Assembly: GCA_964401485.1 (NCBI GenBank)
Contig: CAYNYL010000005.1
Coordinates: forward strand, 8,158 to 72,157
Direction of reading: 5' to 3'
From: an uncultured Gammaproteobacteria bacterium
GTDB lineage: Bacteria; Patescibacteriota; Patescibacteriia; UBA9934
Length of the DNA stretch: 64,000 nucleotides
This document shows, one piece after another, positions 4,471-58,927 of this stretch; the first letter of the stretch is position 1; each line of letters begins with the position of its first letter. The notes below the pieces were generated by a model that was not told the origin of the DNA, ran no database searches, and saw nothing but the letters and a program-made list of their open reading frames with translations. The translations under genes were made by a program, and so were the position numbers.

Positions 4471-5907
4471 CTAGTTTGCGTAGAGCTTTTGCTTGATGAG
4501 CTCGATGTCTCGCTTGAGGGTTTCGCTTTCTGCAACCATCTCTTTAATCTTTGAGTAGGCGTGCATTGCGGTCGTGTGGTCTCGTCCCCCGAGCTCTTGT
4601 CCAATTGATGGGTACGAGCTCTTCATTTCTTCTCGTAGAAGGTACATGATGATTTGTCGCGGGAAAGCGAGGCGCTTTTCTCGGCTCTTTCCAAGAACAT
4701 GGTCCATGTCGATATCGAAATAGTCGGAAACGGTGATGATGATTTGCTTTGGAGAAATCGTCTTTTTCATTGAATCCGAACCGTAGCTCGCGATTAGGGG
4801 TTTGATCGAGTCAATCGTGGCCTTGATGTTTTTGAATTGGTGCCAGGCAATGATTTTATTTAAGGCGCCCTCGAGCTCTCGGACATTGGATTGAATGTTC
4901 TCGCAAATATAGTGGAGCACCTCGCGTTCAAGGTTTACGCCGCGATTGAGGCACTTGGCGTGGAGGATGGCAATACGTGTTTCGAGGTCAGGGGCTCCAA
5001 TATCAACAAGCATTCCCCACTCGAGACGAGAAAGAAGACGTTTTTCAAGACCGGCGATCACTTTTGGTGCGCGATCAGAGCAAATGACGATTTGTTTGTT
5101 CTCTTGATGGAGGGCATTGAACGTGTGGAAGAACTCTTCTTGGGTCCCCTCTTTTCCTGTAATGAACTGGATGTCGTCAATTAAAAGAACGTCGACATTG
5201 CGGTAGCGATCCTTGAATTCTTTGGCTTTTCCTCCGCGTACCGCTTGGATGAAGTCATTTGTAAACGTTTCACATGTTACATAGAGGGCGCGACTTCCTG
5301 GTTTTCGACGAAGGATCTCGTTTCCAACCGCGTGTAGAAGGTGGGTTTTACCAAGTCCGACGCCCCCGTAAATAAAGAGTGGGTTATAGGTACCTCCTGG
5401 TTGAGCTGCTACTGCTTGTGAGGCGGCGTGCGCGAGCTCGTTTTGCTTTCCGACAACGTAGTTATCGAAAACGTAGTGACGGTTGAGACCGCCCGCCTTA
5501 TCAAAGCCCGTTGTTTCGGCTCCCGCGAAGCTTTCGCTGGTAAATCCGAGATCTTGTGGTGCTTCTTCCGTGTGTTGTGGGCGGATATCGAGGTAGATGT
5601 GCTTTTCCGCTGGCTGTTGCTTTTCAAAAATGACCGGCTCGGGCTCGCGAGGGCGTGTTTCGATTCGGTATTCGAGATTTCGAATGGTTTGCTCCGTGAT
5701 CGATTGGAGTGTTTGTAAAATGTCACGATGATATTTCTTCTCAAGCCAGGTTTTCGTGAACGTGTTTGGAACAGCGATGGTAAATCCCTGATCGGTCACA
5801 TTCGCGATGAACGTGTTTCTAAACCAAGTAGTGAATTGGGCCTTACTGAGTTTGAGTTCAAGCTCGCCAAGGGCGGCTTGCCACAGTTCGTGGGTGTTCA
5901 TAAGCAT
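4471..5907 (-). CDS. dnaA: Chromosomal replication initiator protein DnaA
   Basis: AAA+ Walker A GGVGLGKTHLL and a C-terminal DnaA-box-binding domain. Confidence 0.95.
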   Translation of the reverse strand: MLMNTHELWQAALGELELKLSKAQFTTWFRNTFIANVTDQGFTIAVPNTFTKTWLEKKYHRDILQTLQSITEQTIRNLEYRIETRPREPEPVIFEKQQPAEKHIYLDIRPQHTEEAPQDLGFTSESFAGAETTGFDKAGGLNRHYVFDNYVVGKQNELAHAASQAVAAQPGGTYNPLFIYGGVGLGKTHLLHAVGNEILRRKPGSRALYVTCETFTNDFIQAVRGGKAKEFKDRYRNVDVLLIDDIQFITGKEGTQEEFFHTFNALHQENKQIVICSDRAPKVIAGLEKRLLSRLEWGMLVDIGAPDLETRIAILHAKCLNRGVNLEREVLHYICENIQSNVRELEGALNKIIAWHQFKNIKATIDSIKPLIASYGSDSMKKTISPKQIIITVSDYFDIDMDHVLGKSREKRLAFPRQIIMYLLREEMKSSYPSIGQELGGRDHTTAMHAYSKIKEMVAESETLKRDIELIKQKLYAN

Positions 5908-5957
5908 GAGTAGGGAATCCCCTCCAAATTAGTGACGACGGGGTCATCATATACCAC

Positions 5958-17151: not shown

Positions 17152-17339
17152 AGGTTGATTTGTTCATCCGTGCCTCCGAGAGATCCTCGCTCAAAGGGTT
17201 TCCAAGAGGACGGCTAAGTTATATGCGGACTATAGGGGATTTTTGTGTCCCCGTCAATCCGAGCCTCTACGCGCGATTTGATCGCGAGTAAGGGCAGGGG
17301 CTCGACCATCCATTGCTGGCGGTCGAGCACGGTTGGCGG

Positions 17340-17525
17340 CTAGAACCCAGGGGGCTCCGTGCCGTCGAGCTCCATGATCGCGACCTCGGGGTCGGCCATC
17401 ATGGCGAGAATGAGCCGTTCGGCTCGTGGGTCCTTGGGCTTGGGCACGGTTCGTGCCTCGTCTGGCGGAACGCTCTGCACGGATCGAAAGTTCTTCTCTC
17501 GATCCTGGTCGCTTGGAAACTCCAT
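17340..17525 (-). CDS. Small hypothetical protein (61 aa from the internal Met) inside a GC-rich islet
   Basis: CAGGAGGA lies 5 nt upstream of ATG (MEFPSDQ...). G/C dominates codon third positions. Local GC is about 62% against a ~50% backbone. Confidence 0.35.
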   Translation of the reverse strand: MEFPSDQDREKNFRSVQSVPPDEARTVPKPKDPRAERLILAMMADPEVAIMELDGTEPPGF

Positions 17526-17597
17526 GGCATCCTCCTGAAAGCGAAAGAATCGTACCATTTTTCTGATTTTCGTCAATAGTTAGAGGAATTCCGCGAT

Positions 17598-18805: not shown

Positions 18806-19267
18806 CTACGAGGAGGCGGGGGTAGGGTTTGAGGCGGACTTCACGCGCTCTATTGCGACGTGGATAAGCCGTACAGCCTGTGGAACGATGCGGTCGGGAA
18901 AGTCCTTGCCCTTGCGAACCGCGAACAAAAGTCGCTCAAGCTCCTCGAGTCGGTCGGTTCTTGCGGTACGAAGGACGACCTCGATTACGACGTGCTCGAG
19001 AACGACCGCGACCGGTAAGTGTATTCGGCGCCCAAGTCGCCGATCATGGAACGCTTGGTAGAAGAAGTACTGTGTTTCGCAAGCGATTCTCGCGACGTAC
19101 GATGGATTAATCGTGCGGTCCGAGAGGCACGTCTTCGCAAGTTCGACAAATCGCTCCTCGCATACCAGTTCATTCGCAACCTGCGTTTTTGGTGGATCAA
19201 GGATGAGGGCGATAAGCTCTTCCGACCAAGAGTAGGCCTCAAGGGTAAAATGGTAATTCGTTGTCAT
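18806..19267 (-). CDS. Hypothetical protein (153 aa)
   Basis: An ORF with a plausible start, convergent with the tRNAs. No family recognised. Confidence 0.45.
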   Translation of the reverse strand: MTTNYHFTLEAYSWSEELIALILDPPKTQVANELVCEERFVELAKTCLSDRTINPSYVARIACETQYFFYQAFHDRRLGRRIHLPVAVVLEHVVIEVVLRTARTDRLEELERLLFAVRKGKDFPDRIVPQAVRLIHVAIERVKSASNPTPASS

Positions 19268-20132: not shown

Positions 20133-20951
20133 ATGAACTATCTTCGAATTCTCTTTGCCCTACTCGCCCTTGTGCTCGTTGCGATCATTGGGTTTCTTGT
20201 ATGGAATAATGGTGCGGAAGCGCCAATGCCGATTGATAATGAGCCGGTTGCTGAGGAGCAAGCGGAGAATGTTCGCGTGACAAATCTTGTAAGTAATAGT
20301 GTTGTGACTTCCCCGCTCCTTGTCGAGGGCGAAGCGCGCGTGTTTGAGAATGTTGTTAATTGGCAGGTGCGGGCGCTTGATGAAACGGTCTTGGCGCAGG
20401 GATATTTCATGGCGGATGCTCCAGATATCGGTCAGTTCGGACCATTTAGCGAGGAAATTTTCCTTCCGGTCCTTGAGGAAGAGTCATTTTATCTTGATGT
20501 GTTCGCGTTTTCTGCGAAGGACGGCGAACGAGTCGATATCGTGCGACGACCACTGCGAGTTGAGGGAACGGGAAAAACGAGTGTGAAGGTGTTTTATGGC
20601 GATACGGATCAAATCGTAGCGGGTGACTGTACCGCGGTCGATTTTGAGAAGCGAACGGTCCATGCGACGGTAGCGACGGCGAAGTTGGCACTTACGGAGC
20701 TCATTCGTGGAAAAGTGCCTGCCTGGGCGACGAGCGAGATTCCGGAGGGTACGGGAATTAACTCGATCACGATTAAGGATGGTGTTGCGAAGGTTGATTT
20801 CAGTTCCTATTACGTACAGGGCTGGAGCGGAGGTTCTTGTAAGGTCTCTGTTTTACGGGCCCAAATCGAAGAAACACTCAAGCAATTTGAGACCGTTGAT
20901 ACCGTCGAAATAACGGTAAACGGCGAGGCGGAATCAATTCTTCAACCGTAA
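20133..20951 (+). CDS. Secreted GerMN-domain and Gmad2 Ig-like-domain protein
   Basis: N-terminal signal/TM. VVTSPLLVEGEARVFENVVNWQV is Gmad2-like. The C-terminal region from VKVFYGDTD onward is GerMN-like. Confidence 0.6.
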   Translation: MNYLRILFALLALVLVAIIGFLVWNNGAEAPMPIDNEPVAEEQAENVRVTNLVSNSVVTSPLLVEGEARVFENVVNWQVRALDETVLAQGYFMADAPDIGQFGPFSEEIFLPVLEEESFYLDVFAFSAKDGERVDIVRRPLRVEGTGKTSVKVFYGDTDQIVAGDCTAVDFEKRTVHATVATAKLALTELIRGKVPAWATSEIPEGTGINSITIKDGVAKVDFSSYYVQGWSGGSCKVSVLRAQIEETLKQFETVDTVEITVNGEAESILQP

Positions 20952-20966
20952 TATTTCGCTAAGGAT

Positions 20967-21008
20967 AAACATCCGTTGAGGGTAAAACCTTGACGGATGT
21001 TTGTTTTT
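20967..21008 (+). terminator. Hairpin terminator (AAACATCCGT...ACGGATGTTT followed by a T run)
   Basis: 10-bp perfect stem. Confidence 0.55.
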
Positions 21009-21103
21009 AAGGCATACTCCCCTTCGCTGTCTTGGAAACAAGACACATCAATCGGGCAGTTCCGCCCGTTGAAGATGCCCCTCCCCGGGCAATTGGAGCG
21101 CAC

Positions 21104-21955
21104 ATGCGCAATTCGTCCCTCCGTCTCCTCGCTCTGAACAACATCGGTCCGCAGGGCCACAAGCAGGTGGACGTCGCCAACACGACCCTCTTCCTCTACG
21201 ACACGACGAGCGGCCAGTTCTGCATCTCGATGGACCGCCGGATCCAGACCGACCTTCCCGAGGGCTACCTGGTCGTCGTCGGTGCGGTGGCCGACGAGAA
21301 CAAGATCATCGCCGGCGTCGACGCCCGTCTGAAGTTCGACGACAAGGTCGCTTCGGACATGGGTGACGCGCTGACCGAGACCTACAGCGGCATGATCAAC
21401 CTCGACACCGCGGCGATCGACACGAAGCTCGACACGAAGCTCGTGCGCCTCGAGCGCGACGGCGACACGTGGAAGTACACGGTGAACGATGCCTTCCGCT
21501 CCTTCGAGGTCGACCGTGACGGCAAGTTCGGCCTCATCGACCAGAACGGCGGGCTGTCCTACGACATCTCGTTCAAGAAGATGCTCGATCTGGTGGGTGG
21601 CAAGGACGTGTTCAAGCCGAAGGTGACCTTCGCGGCGGGTTCGCGCCTCATCCCCGGCGTCCCGGGCACCAAGTTCGGCGTCTACGATCCGAACACGACG
21701 TTGACGCACTACCTCGACTACGAGGGCAACTTCATCTCCGGTGAGGCCGCCGTCATCCCCGTCAGGGCGAAGGACGGGGACGGCTACGCCACGGTCTCCC
21801 GGGACAAGGACGGTGCGGTGTCGATGATCGGGAAGATCGCCGACATCTCGGAGGTCTTCGAGGTCGGCGGGGACTTCTATCAGAAGCTCACCGCCGCCGC
21901 CAACATGGCCGGGGACGCCCACAAGGCGCCCGCCAACATGGTGAACGCCAAGTAG
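21104..21955 (+). CDS. Hypothetical 283-aa protein in a GC-rich, GC3-biased islet (about 63% GC)
   Basis: GGAG lies 5 nt upstream of the ATG (MRNSSLRLL...). Nearly every codon ends in G/C (gac, ggc, ctc, acg), unlike the flanking genes. The antisense 409-aa ORF is low-complexity (HRHR, GGGG), as expected for a high-GC antisense frame. Terminators flank the gene on both sides. Confidence 0.65.
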   Translation: MRNSSLRLLALNNIGPQGHKQVDVANTTLFLYDTTSGQFCISMDRRIQTDLPEGYLVVVGAVADENKIIAGVDARLKFDDKVASDMGDALTETYSGMINLDTAAIDTKLDTKLVRLERDGDTWKYTVNDAFRSFEVDRDGKFGLIDQNGGLSYDISFKKMLDLVGGKDVFKPKVTFAAGSRLIPGVPGTKFGVYDPNTTLTHYLDYEGNFISGEAAVIPVRAKDGDGYATVSRDKDGAVSMIGKIADISEVFEVGGDFYQKLTAAANMAGDAHKAPANMVNAK

Positions 21956-22067
21956 CGCCAACCGTTCCTCCCTCCTGCCCGTGCCTTCGAAGCAGTAGAG
22001 GGAGAGTTGCCGATCCGGATGAGCTGGATCTGGTGACAGTCTACCGCAAGGGGTACTCCCCGCGCGG

Positions 22068-22116
22068 GGCGTCGGGTACAGGTATGAAAGCCTGTGCTCG
22101 ACGCCTAATTTTTTTT
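22068..22116 (+). terminator. Rho-independent terminator (GGCGTCG...CGACGCC followed by taattttttttg)
   Basis: Read directly in the sequence. Confidence 0.6.
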
Positions 22117-22153
22117 GCGCGAGTTCCTTTCTTTCTGTACACTCGATGTATCT

Positions 22154-24712
22154 ATGGCACAAAAAAAGCACATGATTTTACTTGATGGAAATGCCCTTCT
22201 TCATCGAGCTTGGCATGCAATTCCCCCCCTTTCGACTCCGCAAGGTACTGTTGTAAACGCAGTTTATGGGTTTGCAAACATTGTTGAGAAAATGTTAGAT
22301 GAAAAAAAGCCTGATGCGGTTGTTGTTGCTTGGGATCTTCCGGGGGGAACATTCCGTGACGAGGTGTTTGAAGACTACAAGGCGCATCGTGAAGAGAAAG
22401 AGCAGGAGCTTTACGATCAAATCCCGATGATTCAGGAGATGCTTGCGAAGTACGGGATTGCGTCTGTTTCGGTTCCTGGGTTTGAAGCGGATGATATTAT
22501 TGGTTCGTACGCAAAGCAATTTGCGAGTAAGGACTGCGAGGTTGAGATTCTGACGGGTGACATGGACAGCATGCAACTCGTCGACGAGCATATTTTTGTG
22601 ACGGCTTTTGTAAAGGGGCTCTCGGAAACTAAAAAGTATGATATTCCCGCCGTGACTCAGCGATACCAACTTGCCCCGTCGCAACTTATCGATCTTAAGA
22701 CACTTATGGGGGATCCTTCGGATAATATCCCTGGACTTAAGGGCGTTGGGAAAAAGACCGCGACGGATCTTCTTCTTGCACATGGGTCGATTAAGGGGAT
22801 TCTTGAGGCGATCGCGCGGGGCGAGGTGAAGCCTTCCGTTGCAAAGAAATTCGAGGATCAGGGGGACCGGATCGAGCAAATGAGAACGCTTGCTACGGTT
22901 GTTACGACAATGAAACTTCCTCTAGGGTTTGACGAGATTCTTCTTAAACCGGTTGATCGCGCTTCCCTCCTGCAGCTCTTTACCGAGTATGGATTTAAGC
23001 GACTCGTGCAAAAGTATCAAGATGAAGTCGCTCCCGCCCCTACGCTAAAGACAAATCTTGAGGAGACGACCCTTGATGCACTTGATCGAGAGATGCTCAT
23101 TCTTCAGATTGAAGAAAAGGCGGCGGATTTGTTTGGTGCCGAGATTGGCGGGCTCGTTCTTTCCGATAGAAAGCGCTTTGTACGGTTTGAACACCCCGAT
23201 CGAGAGACGCTTGACCGCATTCTCGGTGCTCTCAACTCGGCAAAGCTTGTCGTTGGTCATGATCTTAAGCGTTCGATGCATCGTATTGGTGAAATCACGG
23301 CTCCGATTCACGACGTGATGATTGCCGGGTACCTACTCGCATCGCACTTACGTGAGTTTGATCTTCAAAATCTTGTTCGAGAGACCTTGAAGGGTTCACT
23401 TCCCGCGACAATGCTTGAACGTGTTTCCGTTCTCGTGTCGCTTTACGAAAAGCAGGCGTTTCTTCTTGAAGAGGCTGGCATGACAAAACTGTCGCAAACG
23501 CTCGAAATGCCTTTGATGCGTGTACTATTTAAAATGGAGGCGCAAGGAATTCTTGTTGACCGTGGCCACCTTGGGTCGCTTTCTTCGCTTTTTGAAACCC
23601 GCCTACTTGAACTTACCAAGGCAATTCATACGAATGCGAAGAGAGAGTTTAATATTAATTCTCCAAGCCAGCTCGCTGAGGTATTGTTTGTTGATCTAGC
23701 CCTTCCAATCAAGGGAATTAAAAAAACAAAGACCACATTTTCGACCGCCGCTCCGGAACTTGAAAAACTCCAGGGAACACACCCGATCATCGATCTTATC
23801 GGTGAGTACCGCGAGCTTGCGAAACTCAAATCGACCTACGCAGATACGCTCCCGCTTCTTATCGCAGGCGATGGTCGCATCCATACCTCTTACAACCAAA
23901 CAGTTGCAGCAACGGGTCGCCTCTCATCATCTGACCCGAATCTCCAAAATATTCCGATTCGTACCGAACTTGGGATGGAAATTCGTAAAGCATTTGTCGC
24001 TCCACCCGGCTACGTCCTTATTTCCATGGACTATTCGCAGTTCGAGCTTCGACTTGTGGCCTCGATTGCGAAGGATCGGTCATTTATCGATGCCTTTCGT
24101 GGTGGAGAGGATATTCACGCTGTGACCGCGGCGCAAATTCTCGATAAGTCACTCGCGGAGGTAACAAAAGATGAGCGCCGTGCGGCAAAGGCGGTCAATT
24201 TCGGAATTCTGTACGGCATGGGTGTTCGAAATCTTGCTCGGTCAACCGGGCTTTCGCAGGCCGAGGCGAAGGCGTTTCTTGATCGTTACTTTACAATTCA
24301 TAAAGGCATTGTCGAATATATTGAATTAATGAAAGAAACGGCGCACACCCAAGGGTACGTCGAAACACTTTATGGCCGACGCCGCTACTTCCCGGACATC
24401 AACTCGGGTATCGGACAGCTCGTTGCGGCGAGCGAGCGCATGGCGATGAATATGCCAATCCAAGGTACGCAGGCGGATCTCGTAAAGATGGCAATGCTTG
24501 AAGTTGAAAGCTGGATCGAGAAATCTGGTACATCTGTAAAGATGTTGCTTCAGGTTCACGACGAACTTGTGTATGAAGTCCGTGAGGAGGAGGCGGTCGA
24601 GGCAGCTAGGTCGCTTAGGGAGATTATGGAGTCGGTATGGAAGGATGAGGTTCCGCTTATTGTAAACGTGGCCATGGGAAAAACATGGGGTTCAATGGAG
24701 GGTCTGTCGTAG
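22154..24712 (+). CDS. polA: DNA polymerase I
   Basis: N-terminal 5'-3' exonuclease region (LLDGNALLHRAWHA) and C-terminal family A polymerase motifs (RRAAKAVNFGILYGM, QVHDELVYE). Start set at the ATG at 22154 (MAQKKHMILLDG). Confidence 0.9.
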   Translation: MAQKKHMILLDGNALLHRAWHAIPPLSTPQGTVVNAVYGFANIVEKMLDEKKPDAVVVAWDLPGGTFRDEVFEDYKAHREEKEQELYDQIPMIQEMLAKYGIASVSVPGFEADDIIGSYAKQFASKDCEVEILTGDMDSMQLVDEHIFVTAFVKGLSETKKYDIPAVTQRYQLAPSQLIDLKTLMGDPSDNIPGLKGVGKKTATDLLLAHGSIKGILEAIARGEVKPSVAKKFEDQGDRIEQMRTLATVVTTMKLPLGFDEILLKPVDRASLLQLFTEYGFKRLVQKYQDEVAPAPTLKTNLEETTLDALDREMLILQIEEKAADLFGAEIGGLVLSDRKRFVRFEHPDRETLDRILGALNSAKLVVGHDLKRSMHRIGEITAPIHDVMIAGYLLASHLREFDLQNLVRETLKGSLPATMLERVSVLVSLYEKQAFLLEEAGMTKLSQTLEMPLMRVLFKMEAQGILVDRGHLGSLSSLFETRLLELTKAIHTNAKREFNINSPSQLAEVLFVDLALPIKGIKKTKTTFSTAAPELEKLQGTHPIIDLIGEYRELAKLKSTYADTLPLLIAGDGRIHTSYNQTVAATGRLSSSDPNLQNIPIRTELGMEIRKAFVAPPGYVLISMDYSQFELRLVASIAKDRSFIDAFRGGEDIHAVTAAQILDKSLAEVTKDERRAAKAVNFGILYGMGVRNLARSTGLSQAEAKAFLDRYFTIHKGIVEYIELMKETAHTQGYVETLYGRRRYFPDINSGIGQLVAASERMAMNMPIQGTQADLVKMAMLEVESWIEKSGTSVKMLLQVHDELVYEVREEEAVEAARSLREIMESVWKDEVPLIVNVAMGKTWGSMEGLS

Positions 24713-50238: not shown

Positions 50239-50315
50239 CGGGTCGTAGCTCAGTAGGCTAGAGCGCTTGGTTTGGGACCAAGAGGTCGCGAGTTCGAGCC
50301 CCGCCGACCCGACCA
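50239..50315 (+). tRNA. tRNA-Pro (anticodon TGG)
   Basis: Acceptor CGGGTCG/CGACCCG, anticodon stem CTTGG/CCAAG with loop ttTGGga, and CCA. Confidence 0.85.
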
Positions 50316-50332
50316 GAACTTTTTATGTTGAC

Positions 50333-50408
50333 GGGCCTGTAGCTCAGTTGGTAGAGCGCTACATTCGCATTGTAGAGGTCAGGAGTTCGACTCTCCTCAG
50401 GTCCACCA
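50333..50408 (+). tRNA. tRNA-Ala (anticodon CGC)
   Basis: Acceptor GGGCCTG/CAGGTCC with the G3:U70 Ala identity pair. Anticodon loop ttCGCat. CCA. Confidence 0.85.
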
Positions 50409-50418
50409 GAGGACATGC

Positions 50419-50494
50419 GGGCCCATAGCTCAGTTGGTAGAGCGCTTCCATGGCATGGAAGAGGTCAGCGGTTCGAACCCGCTTGGGTCCACCA
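50419..50494 (+). tRNA. tRNA-Ala (anticodon GGC)
   Basis: Acceptor GGGCCCA/TGGGTCC with G3:U70. Anticodon loop atGGCat. CCA. Confidence 0.85.
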
Positions 50495-50512
50495 AGGATC
50501 ACTATTCGGCAT

Positions 50513-50588
<76 letters not shown>

Positions 50589-51587: not shown

Positions 51588-53078
<1,491 letters not shown>

Positions 53079-53193
53079 CATATATAGTTTATAACCCGAA
53101 GGTTATAGCTCTGCTTAAATAGACGTTGCAATCACACAGTTGTCAATTCTTTCTGTAGAGCCAATTTGGCTCGTTTTTAATGACCACGGGGGC

Positions 53194-55991: not shown

Positions 55992-57107
55992 GTGCTATCC
56001 TTCTACTATATGAAGAAAGGCTGGTATTTTCTCGGTTTTGTCGTAATCTCGCTTATTTTCGCTATTTTTTGGCAATTTAGGCCGGTAAAAGAGGGGGTAT
56101 TCACGGTCTATGAACATGGCTATTACTCGAAGAGTCTCTATGATCATGCCTATACGAAGGCCGGGGAGGTGAGTCCGGTTCCCGCAAAGAGCGCGATTGT
56201 GGCCCATCATCTTCTTGTCGCGGACAAGGTTGCGGGAGTTTTTGAGGCGATCGGGTCCGAGGACGTGCAAACGGTGATCCTCTTAAGTCCTAACCATTTT
56301 TCACAGGGGCTAGAGGAGGCGCAGGTCGGGGCGGTTGGGTTTACGACACCCTACGGAACGATTGCGCCGGACCTCGACATGGTCCAAAAACTTCTCGACG
56401 GGTATATTCCGCTCTCGCTTGAGAATGAAACATTTCGGGGTGAACACGGAATTTCAACACTAACCCCGTTTATTAAGCGGTCATTTCCAAACGCGAAGCT
56501 CGTGCCGATCGTTCTCCACGAGTCGATGCCTGCCGAGGAGGCGGTACGATTTGGACAGGTTATTGCGGAGAGTGCCGGAAAAGAGACGGTTGTCATTGCG
56601 AGTATTGATATGTCGCACAATCTTCCGCTTGATTACCAACTTTTCCACGACGGGGTGACGAAGGCGGTCATTGCGGGAGGGGTTCGACACGCCGAAGGAG
56701 TCGATCTCGAAATTGACGCGAACGCCGTTCTTCGCACGCTTCTTTCGTACAATGAACAAAAAGGAACGGAGGCGTTTACCCTTACTCATCACGGAAGTTC
56801 GCTTGCGATGGGGAAAGCCGAAGTCTCCGTTGATAATACGAGTCATATTCTTGGGTACTTCCTCAAAGGGTTGCCTGACGCGCGCGGAATTTCAAGCGCG
56901 CTTGTGACAAATGACCAGCTCTTACTCGATCAGTCGGATGATCAACCGTTTTACGAGCGGGATCGAAGGGCGTTTGGAGCTCACATGACAATGATTCGAG
57001 AAGACTTTTTCTCCTCGGGACTTACGTGCGAAGGAGTTGAAAAAACCATCGGAACAATCGGTTTGTTGTTTCACGGAACGGAGTGTATAATTTCGGTAAT
57101 TCACTAA
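55992..57107 (+). CDS. MEMO1/AmmeMemoRadiSam-system protein B family protein, membrane-anchored
   Basis: Family-like motifs AIVAHHLL, LLSPNHF, EHGISTLTPFIK and SIDMSHNL. N-terminal TM helix WYFLGFVVISLIFAIFW. Confidence 0.5.
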   Translation: MLSFYYMKKGWYFLGFVVISLIFAIFWQFRPVKEGVFTVYEHGYYSKSLYDHAYTKAGEVSPVPAKSAIVAHHLLVADKVAGVFEAIGSEDVQTVILLSPNHFSQGLEEAQVGAVGFTTPYGTIAPDLDMVQKLLDGYIPLSLENETFRGEHGISTLTPFIKRSFPNAKLVPIVLHESMPAEEAVRFGQVIAESAGKETVVIASIDMSHNLPLDYQLFHDGVTKAVIAGGVRHAEGVDLEIDANAVLRTLLSYNEQKGTEAFTLTHHGSSLAMGKAEVSVDNTSHILGYFLKGLPDARGISSALVTNDQLLLDQSDDQPFYERDRRAFGAHMTMIREDFFSSGLTCEGVEKTIGTIGLLFHGTECIISVIH

Positions 57108-57115
57108 TTGTTTTT

Positions 57116-58927
57116 ATGGACCAAACACACCCGGCCCCACAAGCTCCGCAGATGCCGTCGTCGCCTCACAAGAAAGGCGACTCGACGACACTCATTCTCA
57201 TTATCGTTGGAATAATCGTCTTCGGCGTTGTTGCCGTCGCGATTATTGGAGCGCTCGTTGCCTATGTCCTTACGCAAACCGTTTCGACAATCGTCGAGGA
57301 GGCGGATATCAACGGAATTGTGGACGTGATTGAGGACGAAATTGACGAGGAGACCGGCGTTGGGAATGAAGAGGTTGATAACGGTGAAACGATTGTTGAT
57401 GAGACCTCGGGTGCACTTGCAATTAATTGGGTGCCTGTCGCGGAGCATCGATACTCCGGGGCGGAGGGATGGGCTTTAGCTGCTGCGACCTATCCAGATC
57501 AGGTAGAGGAGGGATACCTTGAAGTTGGGACTGTTAAGAGTGGTGCCTATCAAGGGTATTCGCTCAGAACGCAAGTATTTTCGGCTGATGGAATGGGTGA
57601 AACGAATAAATACGTAGTCTATTTAGCGGACCCTAGGAGTATTTCCAAGCCGATCATTCTCGATCGCTACGGAAGCGTTCTTTACGGATTTGGGGCAGAG
57701 TCATGGAAATACTTTTCGGTTAGAGACTTGCTCGGCGATGCAATGGTTAATCGCCTCGGTGACCGTGTTGTTTTTAGCACGGGACTTACCATCTCGGACT
57801 TTGTGATTGCTGAAACAATTCGAGATACACAGGGACGAAATTATGACCTAACGGCAATGTGGACGGTCCTTTTTGAACGGCCAGACTCGGAAGTCGTTTT
57901 TGGCAAAACAACGGACGGATATACAATTTATCGTGCCGAGGATGAGTATGCAACGAAGGGGCGCTTTTATATCGTTCGGGAGGATGGTCGAGCGATCGTG
58001 TATGCCCTTAATATTCCATTCTGGGAGGATGAGAAAAAAATGGTTGCACGTCCGGAATTTAGCTTCATGTCCGAGGGCGCTACGGGGGAGTATGCAAAAG
58101 GATTCATTGGAGGCTGTGGTTTTGAAAATCCGATCAACGTTATTGAAGATATTTCTGTTCTCGGAAAATTAAAGAAGGTTGATGTCACAGGAGGCTATTC
58201 AATTTATGTCCCAGAGGATTTGAATAATGAGTTCTATAGCGAGCGGTATGAAAGCTGGATCTATAATGGAGATAAGAGTTTTGAGGACTTCACTGCGATC
58301 ACTCCGTTTTTCTATTGGCAGGATCAAATTGGAAGATGGCTTGAATTCGTTCATGTTGATGTGCTCCCCGCTGCGGAGTGTGGGAAGCCGGTGATTTACC
58401 TCTATCCGGAGGAGACGATGGATGTTGACGTAACGGTTGAGCCTCGCGGAGGGTTCACGTTTACGGAGCCTGCGTATAATGATGGATGGTCGGTGACGGC
58501 AAAGCCTAATGGACAGTTGACGAATAAGGCGGACGGGAAGACCTATCCATACTTGTTCTGGGAGGGTCGAGGAGGTTTATACCAGGCACCGGAAGAGTTC
58601 TGGGTTGTCGAGCAGAAAGAGGTTAAACGTTTCCTAAAGACGACACTTGCGCAGTATGGATTGAATCGCCAAGAGATCGCGGACTTTAATGAGTTCTGGG
58701 TGCCGAGGATGAAGGAGGCGGAGTTCTACAAGATTGGATTTCATGGCACGGCGGTGATGGACGAGATTGCGCCTTTGACGGTTAGCGGTGGGCCAGACTC
58801 TATCTTCCGAATCTTGATGGACTTTGACGAACTTGAGGCGCCGGTTGAGGCAAACCCTCCGAAGAAGATTGTGCCTTTTGTGCGGGAAGGGTTTACGGTG
58901 GTTGAGTGGGGTGGAGTCATTGAATAA
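57116..58927 (+). CDS. Hypothetical membrane-anchored protein (604 aa) with a large extracytoplasmic domain
   Basis: Start at MDQTHPAPQ. TM helix TTLILIIVGIIVFGVVAVAIIGALVAYVL. Acidic linker. No family recognised. Confidence 0.55.
   Translation: MDQTHPAPQAPQMPSSPHKKGDSTTLILIIVGIIVFGVVAVAIIGALVAYVLTQTVSTIVEEADINGIVDVIEDEIDEETGVGNEEVDNGETIVDETSGALAINWVPVAEHRYSGAEGWALAAATYPDQVEEGYLEVGTVKSGAYQGYSLRTQVFSADGMGETNKYVVYLADPRSISKPIILDRYGSVLYGFGAESWKYFSVRDLLGDAMVNRLGDRVVFSTGLTISDFVIAETIRDTQGRNYDLTAMWTVLFERPDSEVVFGKTTDGYTIYRAEDEYATKGRFYIVREDGRAIVYALNIPFWEDEKKMVARPEFSFMSEGATGEYAKGFIGGCGFENPINVIEDISVLGKLKKVDVTGGYSIYVPEDLNNEFYSERYESWIYNGDKSFEDFTAITPFFYWQDQIGRWLEFVHVDVLPAAECGKPVIYLYPEETMDVDVTVEPRGGFTFTEPAYNDGWSVTAKPNGQLTNKADGKTYPYLFWEGRGGLYQAPEEFWVVEQKEVKRFLKTTLAQYGLNRQEIADFNEFWVPRMKEAEFYKIGFHGTAVMDEIAPLTVSGGPDSIFRILMDFDELEAPVEANPPKKIVPFVREGFTVVEWGGVIE

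What the first reader, a model, noticed from the sequence alone, without database searches (positions are those of the whole stretch)
21104..21955. 283-aa high-GC protein of unknown function inserted between a GerMN gene and polA
The protein has a clean SD and start (MRNSSLRLL...) and a diverse, globular-looking composition. Example segments are DGDTWKYTVNDAFRSFEVDRDGKFGLIDQNGGLSYDISFKKM and PGVPGTKFGVYDPNTTL. I recognise no domain. Both flanks are perfect terminators and the codon usage is foreign to the backbone. An antisense 409-aa ORF on the opposite strand is low-complexity and almost certainly spurious. This is a compact foreign cargo gene whose function cannot be read from the sequence.
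Basis: seen in the sequence. Interest (0 to 1): 0.7.

Follow-up and report, generated by a model that had tools for sequence, protein, structure and literature searches.

The report
Hypervariable GC3-saturated orphan gene in CPR
A real 283-aa gene of unknown family sits alone between GerMN and polA in a Patescibacteria genome; it differs about 65% in protein sequence between strains whose flanks are 95% identical, has almost only G or C at third codon positions while its amino acids look native, and is filed on the wrong strand in public gene calls.

The parts
20133..20951 (+). Upstream neighbour: GerMN-type protein (Gmad2 + Germane domains). This is backbone, not part of the unit.
   Evidence: Pfam PF10648 at 3.3e-19 and PF10646 at 7.6e-17. 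Its 3' end is 95% identical in L003.
20960..21009 (+). GerMN terminator hairpin followed by a T-run. Its descending arm carries the -35 of the next promoter.
   Evidence: Inverted repeat I1 with 22-nt arms. Long stem in the RNA fold. Conserved in L003.
20990..21018 (+). Promoter-like site TTGACG-17-CATACT for the orphan gene.
   Evidence: Consensus scan, 9 of 12 matches. It lies inside the flank conserved with L003, and homology ends about 15 nt downstream at about 21033. Function is inferred, not shown.
21034..21103 (+). Allele-specific 5' leader with small hairpins and GGAG at 21095-21098. The left homology breakpoint is at about 21033/21034.
   Evidence: Alignment with L003. Fold z = -6.6 for 20955-21110. 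Leader GC is 0.60 here and 0.53 in the 200-nt L003 leader.
21104..21955 (+). The gene: a 283-aa orphan protein. GC by codon position 0.59/0.39/0.94, with 0 A-ending codons.
   Evidence: Homolog P0002 at E 1.7e-34. Sense frame 140 bits against 29 bits for the antisense frame. AF2 model with pTM 0.64, confident for about residues 30-214.
21917..21955 (+). Semi-conserved last 13 codons (AHKAPxxMxNAK-stop). This is the right-hand homology breakpoint.
   Evidence: blastn homology with L003 resumes at 21917. Alignments.
21956..22116 (+). Conserved GC-rich 3' untranslated region: a train of four stable hairpins. The last (22067-22106, followed by T8) is the terminator.
   Evidence: MFE -88.5 kcal/mol, z = -7.3. 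Terminator scan. About 97% identical in L003, with two 1-nt indels. No Rfam match at E <= 1.
20942..22171 (-). 409-aa antisense shadow ORF. This is an artefact, and it is the ORF recorded in public gene calls as P0001.
   Evidence: GC by position 0.81/0.42/0.59 and V/L/G/R-rich composition. Only 28.9 bits between alleles. Its frame is not preserved in L003, where the stop-free span is only 486-1506. It was called in the Logan assemblies, and the collection also lists NCBI as a source for it.
22154..24712 (+). Downstream neighbour: DNA polymerase I (polA). This is backbone.
   Evidence: Pfam DNA_pol_A at 2.3e-143 plus the 5'-3' exonuclease domains.

Best explanation
This is a genuine, monocistronic protein-coding gene on the + strand of a Patescibacteria (CPR) genome. 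It has its own promoter-like site, leader, GGAG site, ORF and a four-hairpin 3' region ending in a terminator. It belongs to a lineage-restricted family with one other known allele. It is a strain-hypervariable 'replacement' locus. Alleles about 35% identical in protein occupy the same slot between GerMN and polA in backbones whose flanks are about 95% identical in DNA. They are most likely exchanged by homologous recombination through the conserved flanks, with the left crossover zone ending just after the promoter and the right one starting in the last 13 codons (inferred). The protein is beta-rich with propeller-blade-like modules. I infer that it is a binding protein, probably exposed at the cell envelope and under diversifying pressure from a host cell or a phage. 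I also infer that the structured untranslated regions and the G/C-saturated wobble positions reflect selection at the mRNA level, for example for a long-lived, heavily used message, rather than import from a high-GC donor. Shown: coding strand, homology, the locus, the breakpoints, the composition decoupling, and the annotation error. Inferred: recombinational exchange, cellular location, function, and the reason for the GC3 saturation.
Confidence: 0.5

Rival explanations
1. Recent horizontal acquisition of a cargo gene from a high-GC donor such as an actinobacterium or its phage. The high GC3 would simply be the donor's codon usage, not yet ameliorated.
For: GC3 is 0.94 against 0.52 in the host, and the codon choices (CTC, GTC, GGC, GCC, ACG, TCG) are unlike the backbone's (CTT, GTT, GGA). 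The gene is absent between GerMN and polA in L016. The locus lies 2.4 kb from a tyrosine recombinase gene and two tRNA genes.
Against: Amino-acid composition, GC1 and GC2 are host-like and outside the range of 42 real high-GC genes. No homolog was found in any high-GC organism, phage or plasmid among 1.84 billion representatives and the DNA collections searched. Two alleles only 35% identical, both unameliorated, sit in the same slot with backbone-level identity right up to sharp breakpoints. That would require repeated import into one site, or long residence. There are no mobility genes, direct repeats or att-like duplications at the borders.
Confidence: 0.2
2. A strain-specific cytoplasmic specificity or immunity-type protein, for example an orphan immunity protein or an anti-phage sensor, rather than an envelope protein. 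The hypervariability would come from an arms race with toxins or phages.
For: The window allele lacks a clear signal peptide or transmembrane segment. It is hypervariable between near-identical backbones. It is a stand-alone gene in a housekeeping neighbourhood.
Against: No PADLOC, Pfam or NCBIfam match. No partner toxin or effector gene is adjacent. P0002 has a signal-peptide-like N-terminus. This reading does not explain the GC3 saturation.
Confidence: 0.2
3. The 409-aa minus-strand ORF, as recorded in public gene calls, is the real gene, or both strands encode proteins.
For: It is the longest ORF, stop-free over 20944-22177. The gene caller chose it in the two Logan assemblies read here, and the collection also lists NCBI as a source.
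Against: Its GC pattern of 0.81/0.42/0.59 is the mirror of a sense gene. Its composition is V18 L12 G12 R11. Conservation between alleles is 28.9 bits against 140 for the sense frame. Absence of stops follows arithmetically from 0 of 283 A-ending sense codons. 1-nt indels in the 97%-identical 3' region shift its frame in L003, where the open span is shorter. In L003 and L164 the caller chose the sense ORF.
Confidence: 0.02
4. Not a protein gene: a GC-rich structured non-coding RNA, an assembly chimera, or a DGR-type variable region.
For: It is a GC-rich island in a mid-GC genome with very stable local folds. It is hypervariable, and A is avoided at third positions, as in DGR templates.
Against: There is strong three-base periodicity and frame-specific protein conservation. 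No Rfam match at E <= 1. Identical sequence in three assemblies, and a second allele in two more. No second copy or template repeat in the window, and no reverse transcriptase among the ORFs tested; the window was not screened exhaustively for one. Differences between alleles are spread over the whole gene and include indels.
Confidence: 0.03

Closest known systems
Replacement-type hypervariable loci exchanged by homologous recombination through conserved flanks (for example the Clostridioides difficile slpA S-layer cassette and Borrelia ospC; from my own knowledge, not tested here)
   Same: Fixed chromosomal slot. Flanks at backbone identity (95-97%) with abrupt transition to highly divergent but homologous alleles. 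Single transcription unit with its own promoter-like site and strong terminator. Large change in predicted surface charge between alleles.
   Different: No relation to any known surface-protein family. No clear signal peptide in one allele. Only two alleles known. Extreme GC3 saturation, whereas such islands are usually at or below genome GC. Recombinational exchange is inferred, not observed.
Compositionally atypical horizontally acquired genomic islets
   Same: GC 0.64 against 0.50. Codon usage unlike the backbone. Absent from the same junction in relative L016.
   Different: Only synonymous sites are atypical; amino-acid usage, GC1 and GC2 are native-like. No donor, no mobility genes, no target-site repeats. 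A second divergent allele at the same site.
Beta-propeller repeat proteins (WD40, NHL, YVTN, Kelch, SGL)
   Different: No Pfam propeller family matches even at E <= 1. TM-scores are only 0.2-0.3. The model has predicted helices between the sheets. Internal repeats are not significant. A closed propeller is not demonstrated.
Shadow ORFs opposite GC3-rich genes (a known gene-calling artefact)
   Same: The 409-aa antisense ORF has the mirror GC pattern and is stop-free because sense third positions lack A.
   Different: Here the artefact displaced the true gene in the public gene calls, so the real family is nearly invisible in protein databases.
Diversity-generating retroelement (DGR) target genes, which are common in CPR (from my own knowledge)
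   Same: Hypervariable protein in a CPR genome, with adenines avoided at third codon positions.
   Different: No template repeat in the window and no reverse transcriptase among the ORFs tested. Variation spans the whole gene with indels, rather than a short C-terminal region restricted to template adenines.

Membership tests
Beta-propeller repeat families (Kelch / NHL / WD40 / YVTN) | Significant match to a family profile | tested here: not met
   0 Pfam families at E <= 1 and 0 NCBIfam families. The PDB profile search gave no propeller.
Beta-propeller repeat families (Kelch / NHL / WD40 / YVTN) | 4-8 tandem four-stranded blades closing into a toroid | tested here: inconclusive
Horizontally acquired island from a high-GC donor | Donor-like composition at all codon positions and in amino-acid usage | tested here: not met
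   GC1 0.59, GC2 0.39, K/(K+R) 0.63 and GARP 0.27 are within the host range and outside 42 high-GC control genes.
Horizontally acquired island from a high-GC donor | Identifiable relatives in a donor lineage | tested here: not met
   The only relative is the allele at the same CPR locus. Nothing in phages, plasmids, viral contigs, GTDB genomes or JGI metagenomes.
Horizontally acquired island from a high-GC donor | Absent from the same site in relatives | tested here: met
   In L016 GerMN (5151-5933) abuts polA (6001). This rests on one relative only; other relatives have different neighbours.
Replacement hypervariable locus (allelic exchange through conserved flanks) | Homologous but highly divergent alleles at one site in near-identical backbones, with sharp breakpoints | tested here: met
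   35% amino-acid identity against 95-97% nucleotide identity in the flanks. Breakpoints at about 21033 and about 21917.
Replacement hypervariable locus (allelic exchange through conserved flanks) | Many alleles segregating in the population, with evidence of recombination | not testable with these tools
   Only two alleles are retrievable, plus one near-identical copy, P0007. No population data.
Secreted or surface protein | N-terminal signal peptide, lipobox or anchor | tested here: inconclusive
   P0002 has a hydrophobic N-terminus of about 15 residues, while the window allele does not. No dedicated signal-peptide predictor was available.
DGR target gene | Nearby reverse transcriptase and template repeat; variation limited to template adenines | tested here: not met
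   No second copy in the window. Variation is gene-wide with indels. No reverse transcriptase among the ORFs tested, though the window was not screened exhaustively.
Known RNA family | Covariance-model match | tested here: not met
   No Rfam hit at E <= 1 in 20900-22200.

The most novel reading that the evidence does not exclude
Patescibacteria carry a hitherto unnoticed class of stand-alone, fast-evolving envelope or binding-protein genes whose synonymous sites are actively driven to G/C saturation while their amino-acid usage stays native. The window gene, its allele in L003, the non-homologous lipoprotein gene in L015 and the truncated ORF in L012 would be members. The drive would be a dedicated pressure, for example hyper-stable mRNAs in ribosome-poor cells or codon matching to a high-GC host. 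Because gene callers pick their shadow ORFs, these genes would be systematically missing from protein databases.
Probability: 0.15. Interest if true: 0.85.

Novelty: new variant of a known kind. Interest (0 to 1): 0.58.

Why it matters
It matters for three reasons.

1. It is a concrete case where standard gene calling replaced a real gene with its shadow ORF, so the true family is almost invisible to protein-database searches. Similar genes may be systematically lost in CPR MAGs.

2. GC3 is decoupled from GC1, GC2 and amino-acid usage. This is unusual and separates "foreign codon usage" from "foreign gene". It points to selection or a biased process acting only on synonymous sites of one gene.

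3. CPR bacteria are thought to live attached to host cells. A strain-hypervariable, probably binding-type protein at a fixed locus is a plausible candidate for host or phage recognition, and allele swaps could test this directly.

Tried and rejected
- **Word-indexed protein search with the sense protein.** Nothing found, which is explained by the wrong-strand public call. A search with the antisense product found only itself. A search with the two-allele profile found only P0002.
- **tblastn and pattern scans.** Phages, plasmids, viral contigs, GTDB genomes and JGI metagenomes yielded no family member.
- **P0003-P0006 from the exhaustive search.** Repeat-driven local matches, not homologs.
- **Single-sequence AF2.** Unusable, pLDDT 38.
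- **afdb50 fold library.** Unavailable. The viral fold library gave no significant hit.
- **Internal repeat detection by hhalign.** Not significant.
- **L015 ORF as a remote homolog.** Rejected, hhalign probability 0.2.
- **DGR or template repeat.** No second copy in the window.
- **Rfam on the cassette and its 3' region.** Nothing.
- **Uncorrected six-frame BLAST.** Misleading because of low-complexity off-frames; redone with composition correction.
- **Literature searches.** Searches for the SRA runs and for comparable CPR codon-usage or hypervariable-gene reports found nothing relevant.
- **Shared post-stop motif GCCAACCGT with the small ORF at 17340-17576.** Chance probability about 0.12, so kept only as a lead.

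Full report
**1. The observation**

- GGAG lies at 21095-21098, 5 nt before the ATG.
- Upstream, the GerMN gene (Pfam Gmad2 + Germane) ends in a long hairpin at 20960-21009 with a T-run.
- Downstream, a 17-bp stem at 22067-22106 followed by T8 precedes polA.
- GC rises to 0.60-0.65 across 21000-22000, against a window mean of 0.50.
- The 409-aa ORF on the opposite strand (20942-22171) also exists.

**2. Which strand codes**

GC by codon position in the 283-aa frame is 0.59/0.39/0.94. The antisense ORF shows the mirror pattern, 0.81/0.42/0.59. The gene has 0 A-ending codons out of 283. Every stop codon in the antisense "-0" frame needs a T at its first position, which is an A at a sense third position. 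The long antisense ORF is therefore an arithmetic by-product of the sense codon usage.

When the two known alleles are compared with composition-corrected BLASTP, only the sense/sense pair is strongly conserved: 140 bits, E 1.6e-44, over 262 aa. The antisense pair scores 28.9 bits. In the second allele the antisense open span is shorter (486-1506 in L003), because 1-nt indels in the otherwise 97%-identical 3' region shift its frame. The sense gene is real and the antisense ORF is spurious.

**3. A database blind spot**

The backbone is on record in two Logan assemblies that are 100% identical to the window, and the collection also lists NCBI as a source, with a longest contig of 75,949 bp. In the Logan assemblies the gene caller recorded the antisense 409-aa ORF (P0001) and not the 283-aa gene. 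That is why the word-indexed protein search and the exact look-up found nothing for the true protein.

**4. Relatives**

An exhaustive HMMER pass over 1.84 billion cluster representatives found one true homolog, P0002: 301 aa, E 1.7e-34, 35% identity, covering residues 22-283. The other four hits are large repeat proteins matched locally. P0002 and its near-identical copy P0007 come from two further independent datasets. No other member was found in:
- phages or plasmids
- viral contigs
- GTDB species genomes
- JGI metagenomes
- any of the 156 loci fetched around polA relatives

**5. Same slot, different allele**

The P0002 contig (L003) has flanks 95% identical in DNA to window 20722-21037 (GerMN 3' end, terminator, promoter-like site) and to 21917-22422 (last 39 nt of the ORF, the 3' region, and the polA 5' end). 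Homology stops abruptly at about 21033, roughly 15 nt past the -10-like hexamer. It resumes inside the last 13 codons. Between these points the two genes are homologous over their full length but only 33-35% identical in protein. They have different leaders (70 nt against 200 nt), and their DNA is essentially unalignable.

Both alleles have the same codon style: GC3 0.94 and 0.95, with A at third positions 0% and 1%. The neighbouring GerMN C-terminus differs at 3 of 75 residues (read from the sequences). This is the signature of a hypervariable resident locus.

**6. Organism and synteny**

polA relatives place the window in Patescibacteria/CPR: Candidatus Uhrbacteria 55%, "Patescibacteria group" MAGs 52-53%, and one unnamed MAG at 79%. 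The 16S gene in the window has no 23S gene next to it. In L016, GerMN ends 67 nt before polA, so the gene is an insertion relative to that relative. Other relatives have different upstream neighbours. L008 (79% polA) starts with AAGTAG followed by a non-homologous but equally hairpin-rich GC-rich spacer (z = -6.4), and the contig ends exactly there. This hints that a third allele exists but was not seen.

**7. Foreign or native?**

Only the third codon positions are unusual.

| Set | GC1 | GC2 | GC3 | K/(K+R) | FYMINK | GARP |
|---|---|---|---|---|---|---|
| 18 host genes | 0.606 +/- 0.029 | 0.393 +/- 0.043 | 0.515 +/- 0.053 | 0.48 | 0.244 | 0.26 |
| Target | 0.59 | 0.389 | 0.936 | 0.625 | 0.279 | 0.265 |
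| P0002 | 0.571 | 0.389 | 0.95 | 0.705 | 0.292 | 0.256 |
| 42 control ORFs, GC3 >= 0.85, from 25 high-GC loci | 0.658 | 0.477 | 0.875 | 0.23 (max 0.44) | 0.178 (max 0.224) | 0.327 (min 0.266) |

Neither allele falls inside the control range on K/(K+R), FYMINK or GARP. The allele-specific leaders have GC 0.53-0.60. A gene imported from a roughly 70% GC donor should carry that donor's amino-acid bias, and this one does not. Together with the absence of any donor family and the existence of two deeply diverged alleles that are both unameliorated, this argues against simple import. It favours a process that keeps synonymous sites G/C-saturated within the CPR lineage. Ordinary translational selection is unlikely, because rpoB, rpoC, S15 and PNPase show no such bias and the host's favourite codons (CTT, GTT, GGA) are avoided. 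The cause remains unexplained.

**8. Transcript anatomy**

- The promoter-like TTGACG-17-CATACT sits in the conserved flank.
- The leader is structured (z = -6.6).
- The conserved 160-nt 3' region folds into four stable hairpins, the last being the terminator (MFE -88.5 kcal/mol, z = -7.3).
- There is no Rfam match.
- With wobble positions almost free of A and U, the whole message is GC-rich and structured.

I infer selection for a stable, well-insulated monocistronic message. This is a hypothesis and has not been tested.

**9. The protein**

A "KFGLIDQN / KFGVYDPN" repeat spaced 49 aa is visible in the DNA and resembles Kelch-like repeats in P0004 and P0006. Profile comparison of segments finds no significant internal repeats. 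P0002 has a signal-peptide-like N-terminus and the window allele does not. The pI differs, 4.99 against 8.51. The best functional guess is a beta-rich, blade-like binding scaffold, possibly envelope-exposed. Confidence is low to moderate.

**10. A possible wider pattern**

L015, another Patescibacteria MAG (genome GC 0.47), has a stand-alone 264-aa ORF upstream of polA with these features:
- GC by position 0.56/0.42/0.87
- host-like amino acids (K/(K+R) 0.57, GARP 0.20)
- a lipobox (LLAAC)
- a near-consensus promoter and a strong terminator
- a shadow ORF on the other strand

It is not detectably homologous to the target. L012/L088 ends in a truncated ORF with GC3 0.85. All fetched loci are centred on polA, so the proximity to polA may be a sampling artefact.

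**11. Verdict**

What is there is a new, lineage-restricted protein family at a strain-hypervariable locus, with a synonymous-site-only GC saturation that I could not explain, and a wrong-strand record in public gene calls.

Noticed in passing
L015:4843-5637 (+): In another Patescibacteria MAG (genome GC 0.47) there is a stand-alone 264-aa ORF upstream of polA. It has GC3 0.87 but host-like amino-acid usage, a lipobox (LLAAC), a near-consensus promoter, a strong terminator and a shadow ORF opposite. It lies between two tRNA-like sequences read by eye from the DNA (not confirmed with a tRNA scan). It is not homologous to the target.
   Followed up: partly
L012:5957-6385 (-) (same contig as L088): A truncated ORF with GC3 0.85 in a 47% GC Patescibacteria contig, which ends inside it. 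This is another possible member of the GC3-saturated class.
   Followed up: no
L008:1-285: The closest polA relative (79%) has a contig that begins with AAGTAG, the same last codon and stop as both alleles. A non-homologous GC-rich hairpin train follows (z = -6.4) before polA. The variable gene itself is missing because the contig ends there.
   Followed up: partly
window 17152-17597 (-), ORF 17340-17576: A 445-nt GC-rich (0.57-0.61) stretch between rpsO and the xerC-like gene. It contains a 72-78-aa ORF with no family match. The second half of the ORF has GC3 0.82, and its stop is followed by TAG-CCGCCAACCGT, close to the target's TAG-CGCCAACCGT. The 9-mer occurs only at these two places in the window (chance P about 0.12). 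The region folds with z = -4.8 and has no Rfam match.
   Followed up: partly
window 18806-19267 (-): A 153-aa ORF with no Pfam or NCBIfam match and mildly raised GC3 (0.63), next to tRNA-Arg(TCT) and tRNA-His(GTG) and downstream of the xerC-like recombinase gene. Public gene calls record it with no family.
   Followed up: partly
window 51589-53085 (-): A complete 16S rRNA gene with no 23S rRNA gene adjacent within the window, that is, an unlinked rRNA operon. A cluster of four tRNA genes lies at 50239-50588.
   Followed up: no
window 22154 vs 22172: The public gene call for polA starts at 22172 (846 aa), immediately after the end of the spurious antisense ORF. An in-frame ATG at 22154 (MAQKKHMILLDG...) is conserved in L003. 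The shadow ORF probably also distorted the polA start call.
   Followed up: partly
window 57083-58927 (+): A 614-aa ORF with no Pfam match at E <= 1e-3, next to an SMC-like gene. Not examined further.
   Followed up: no
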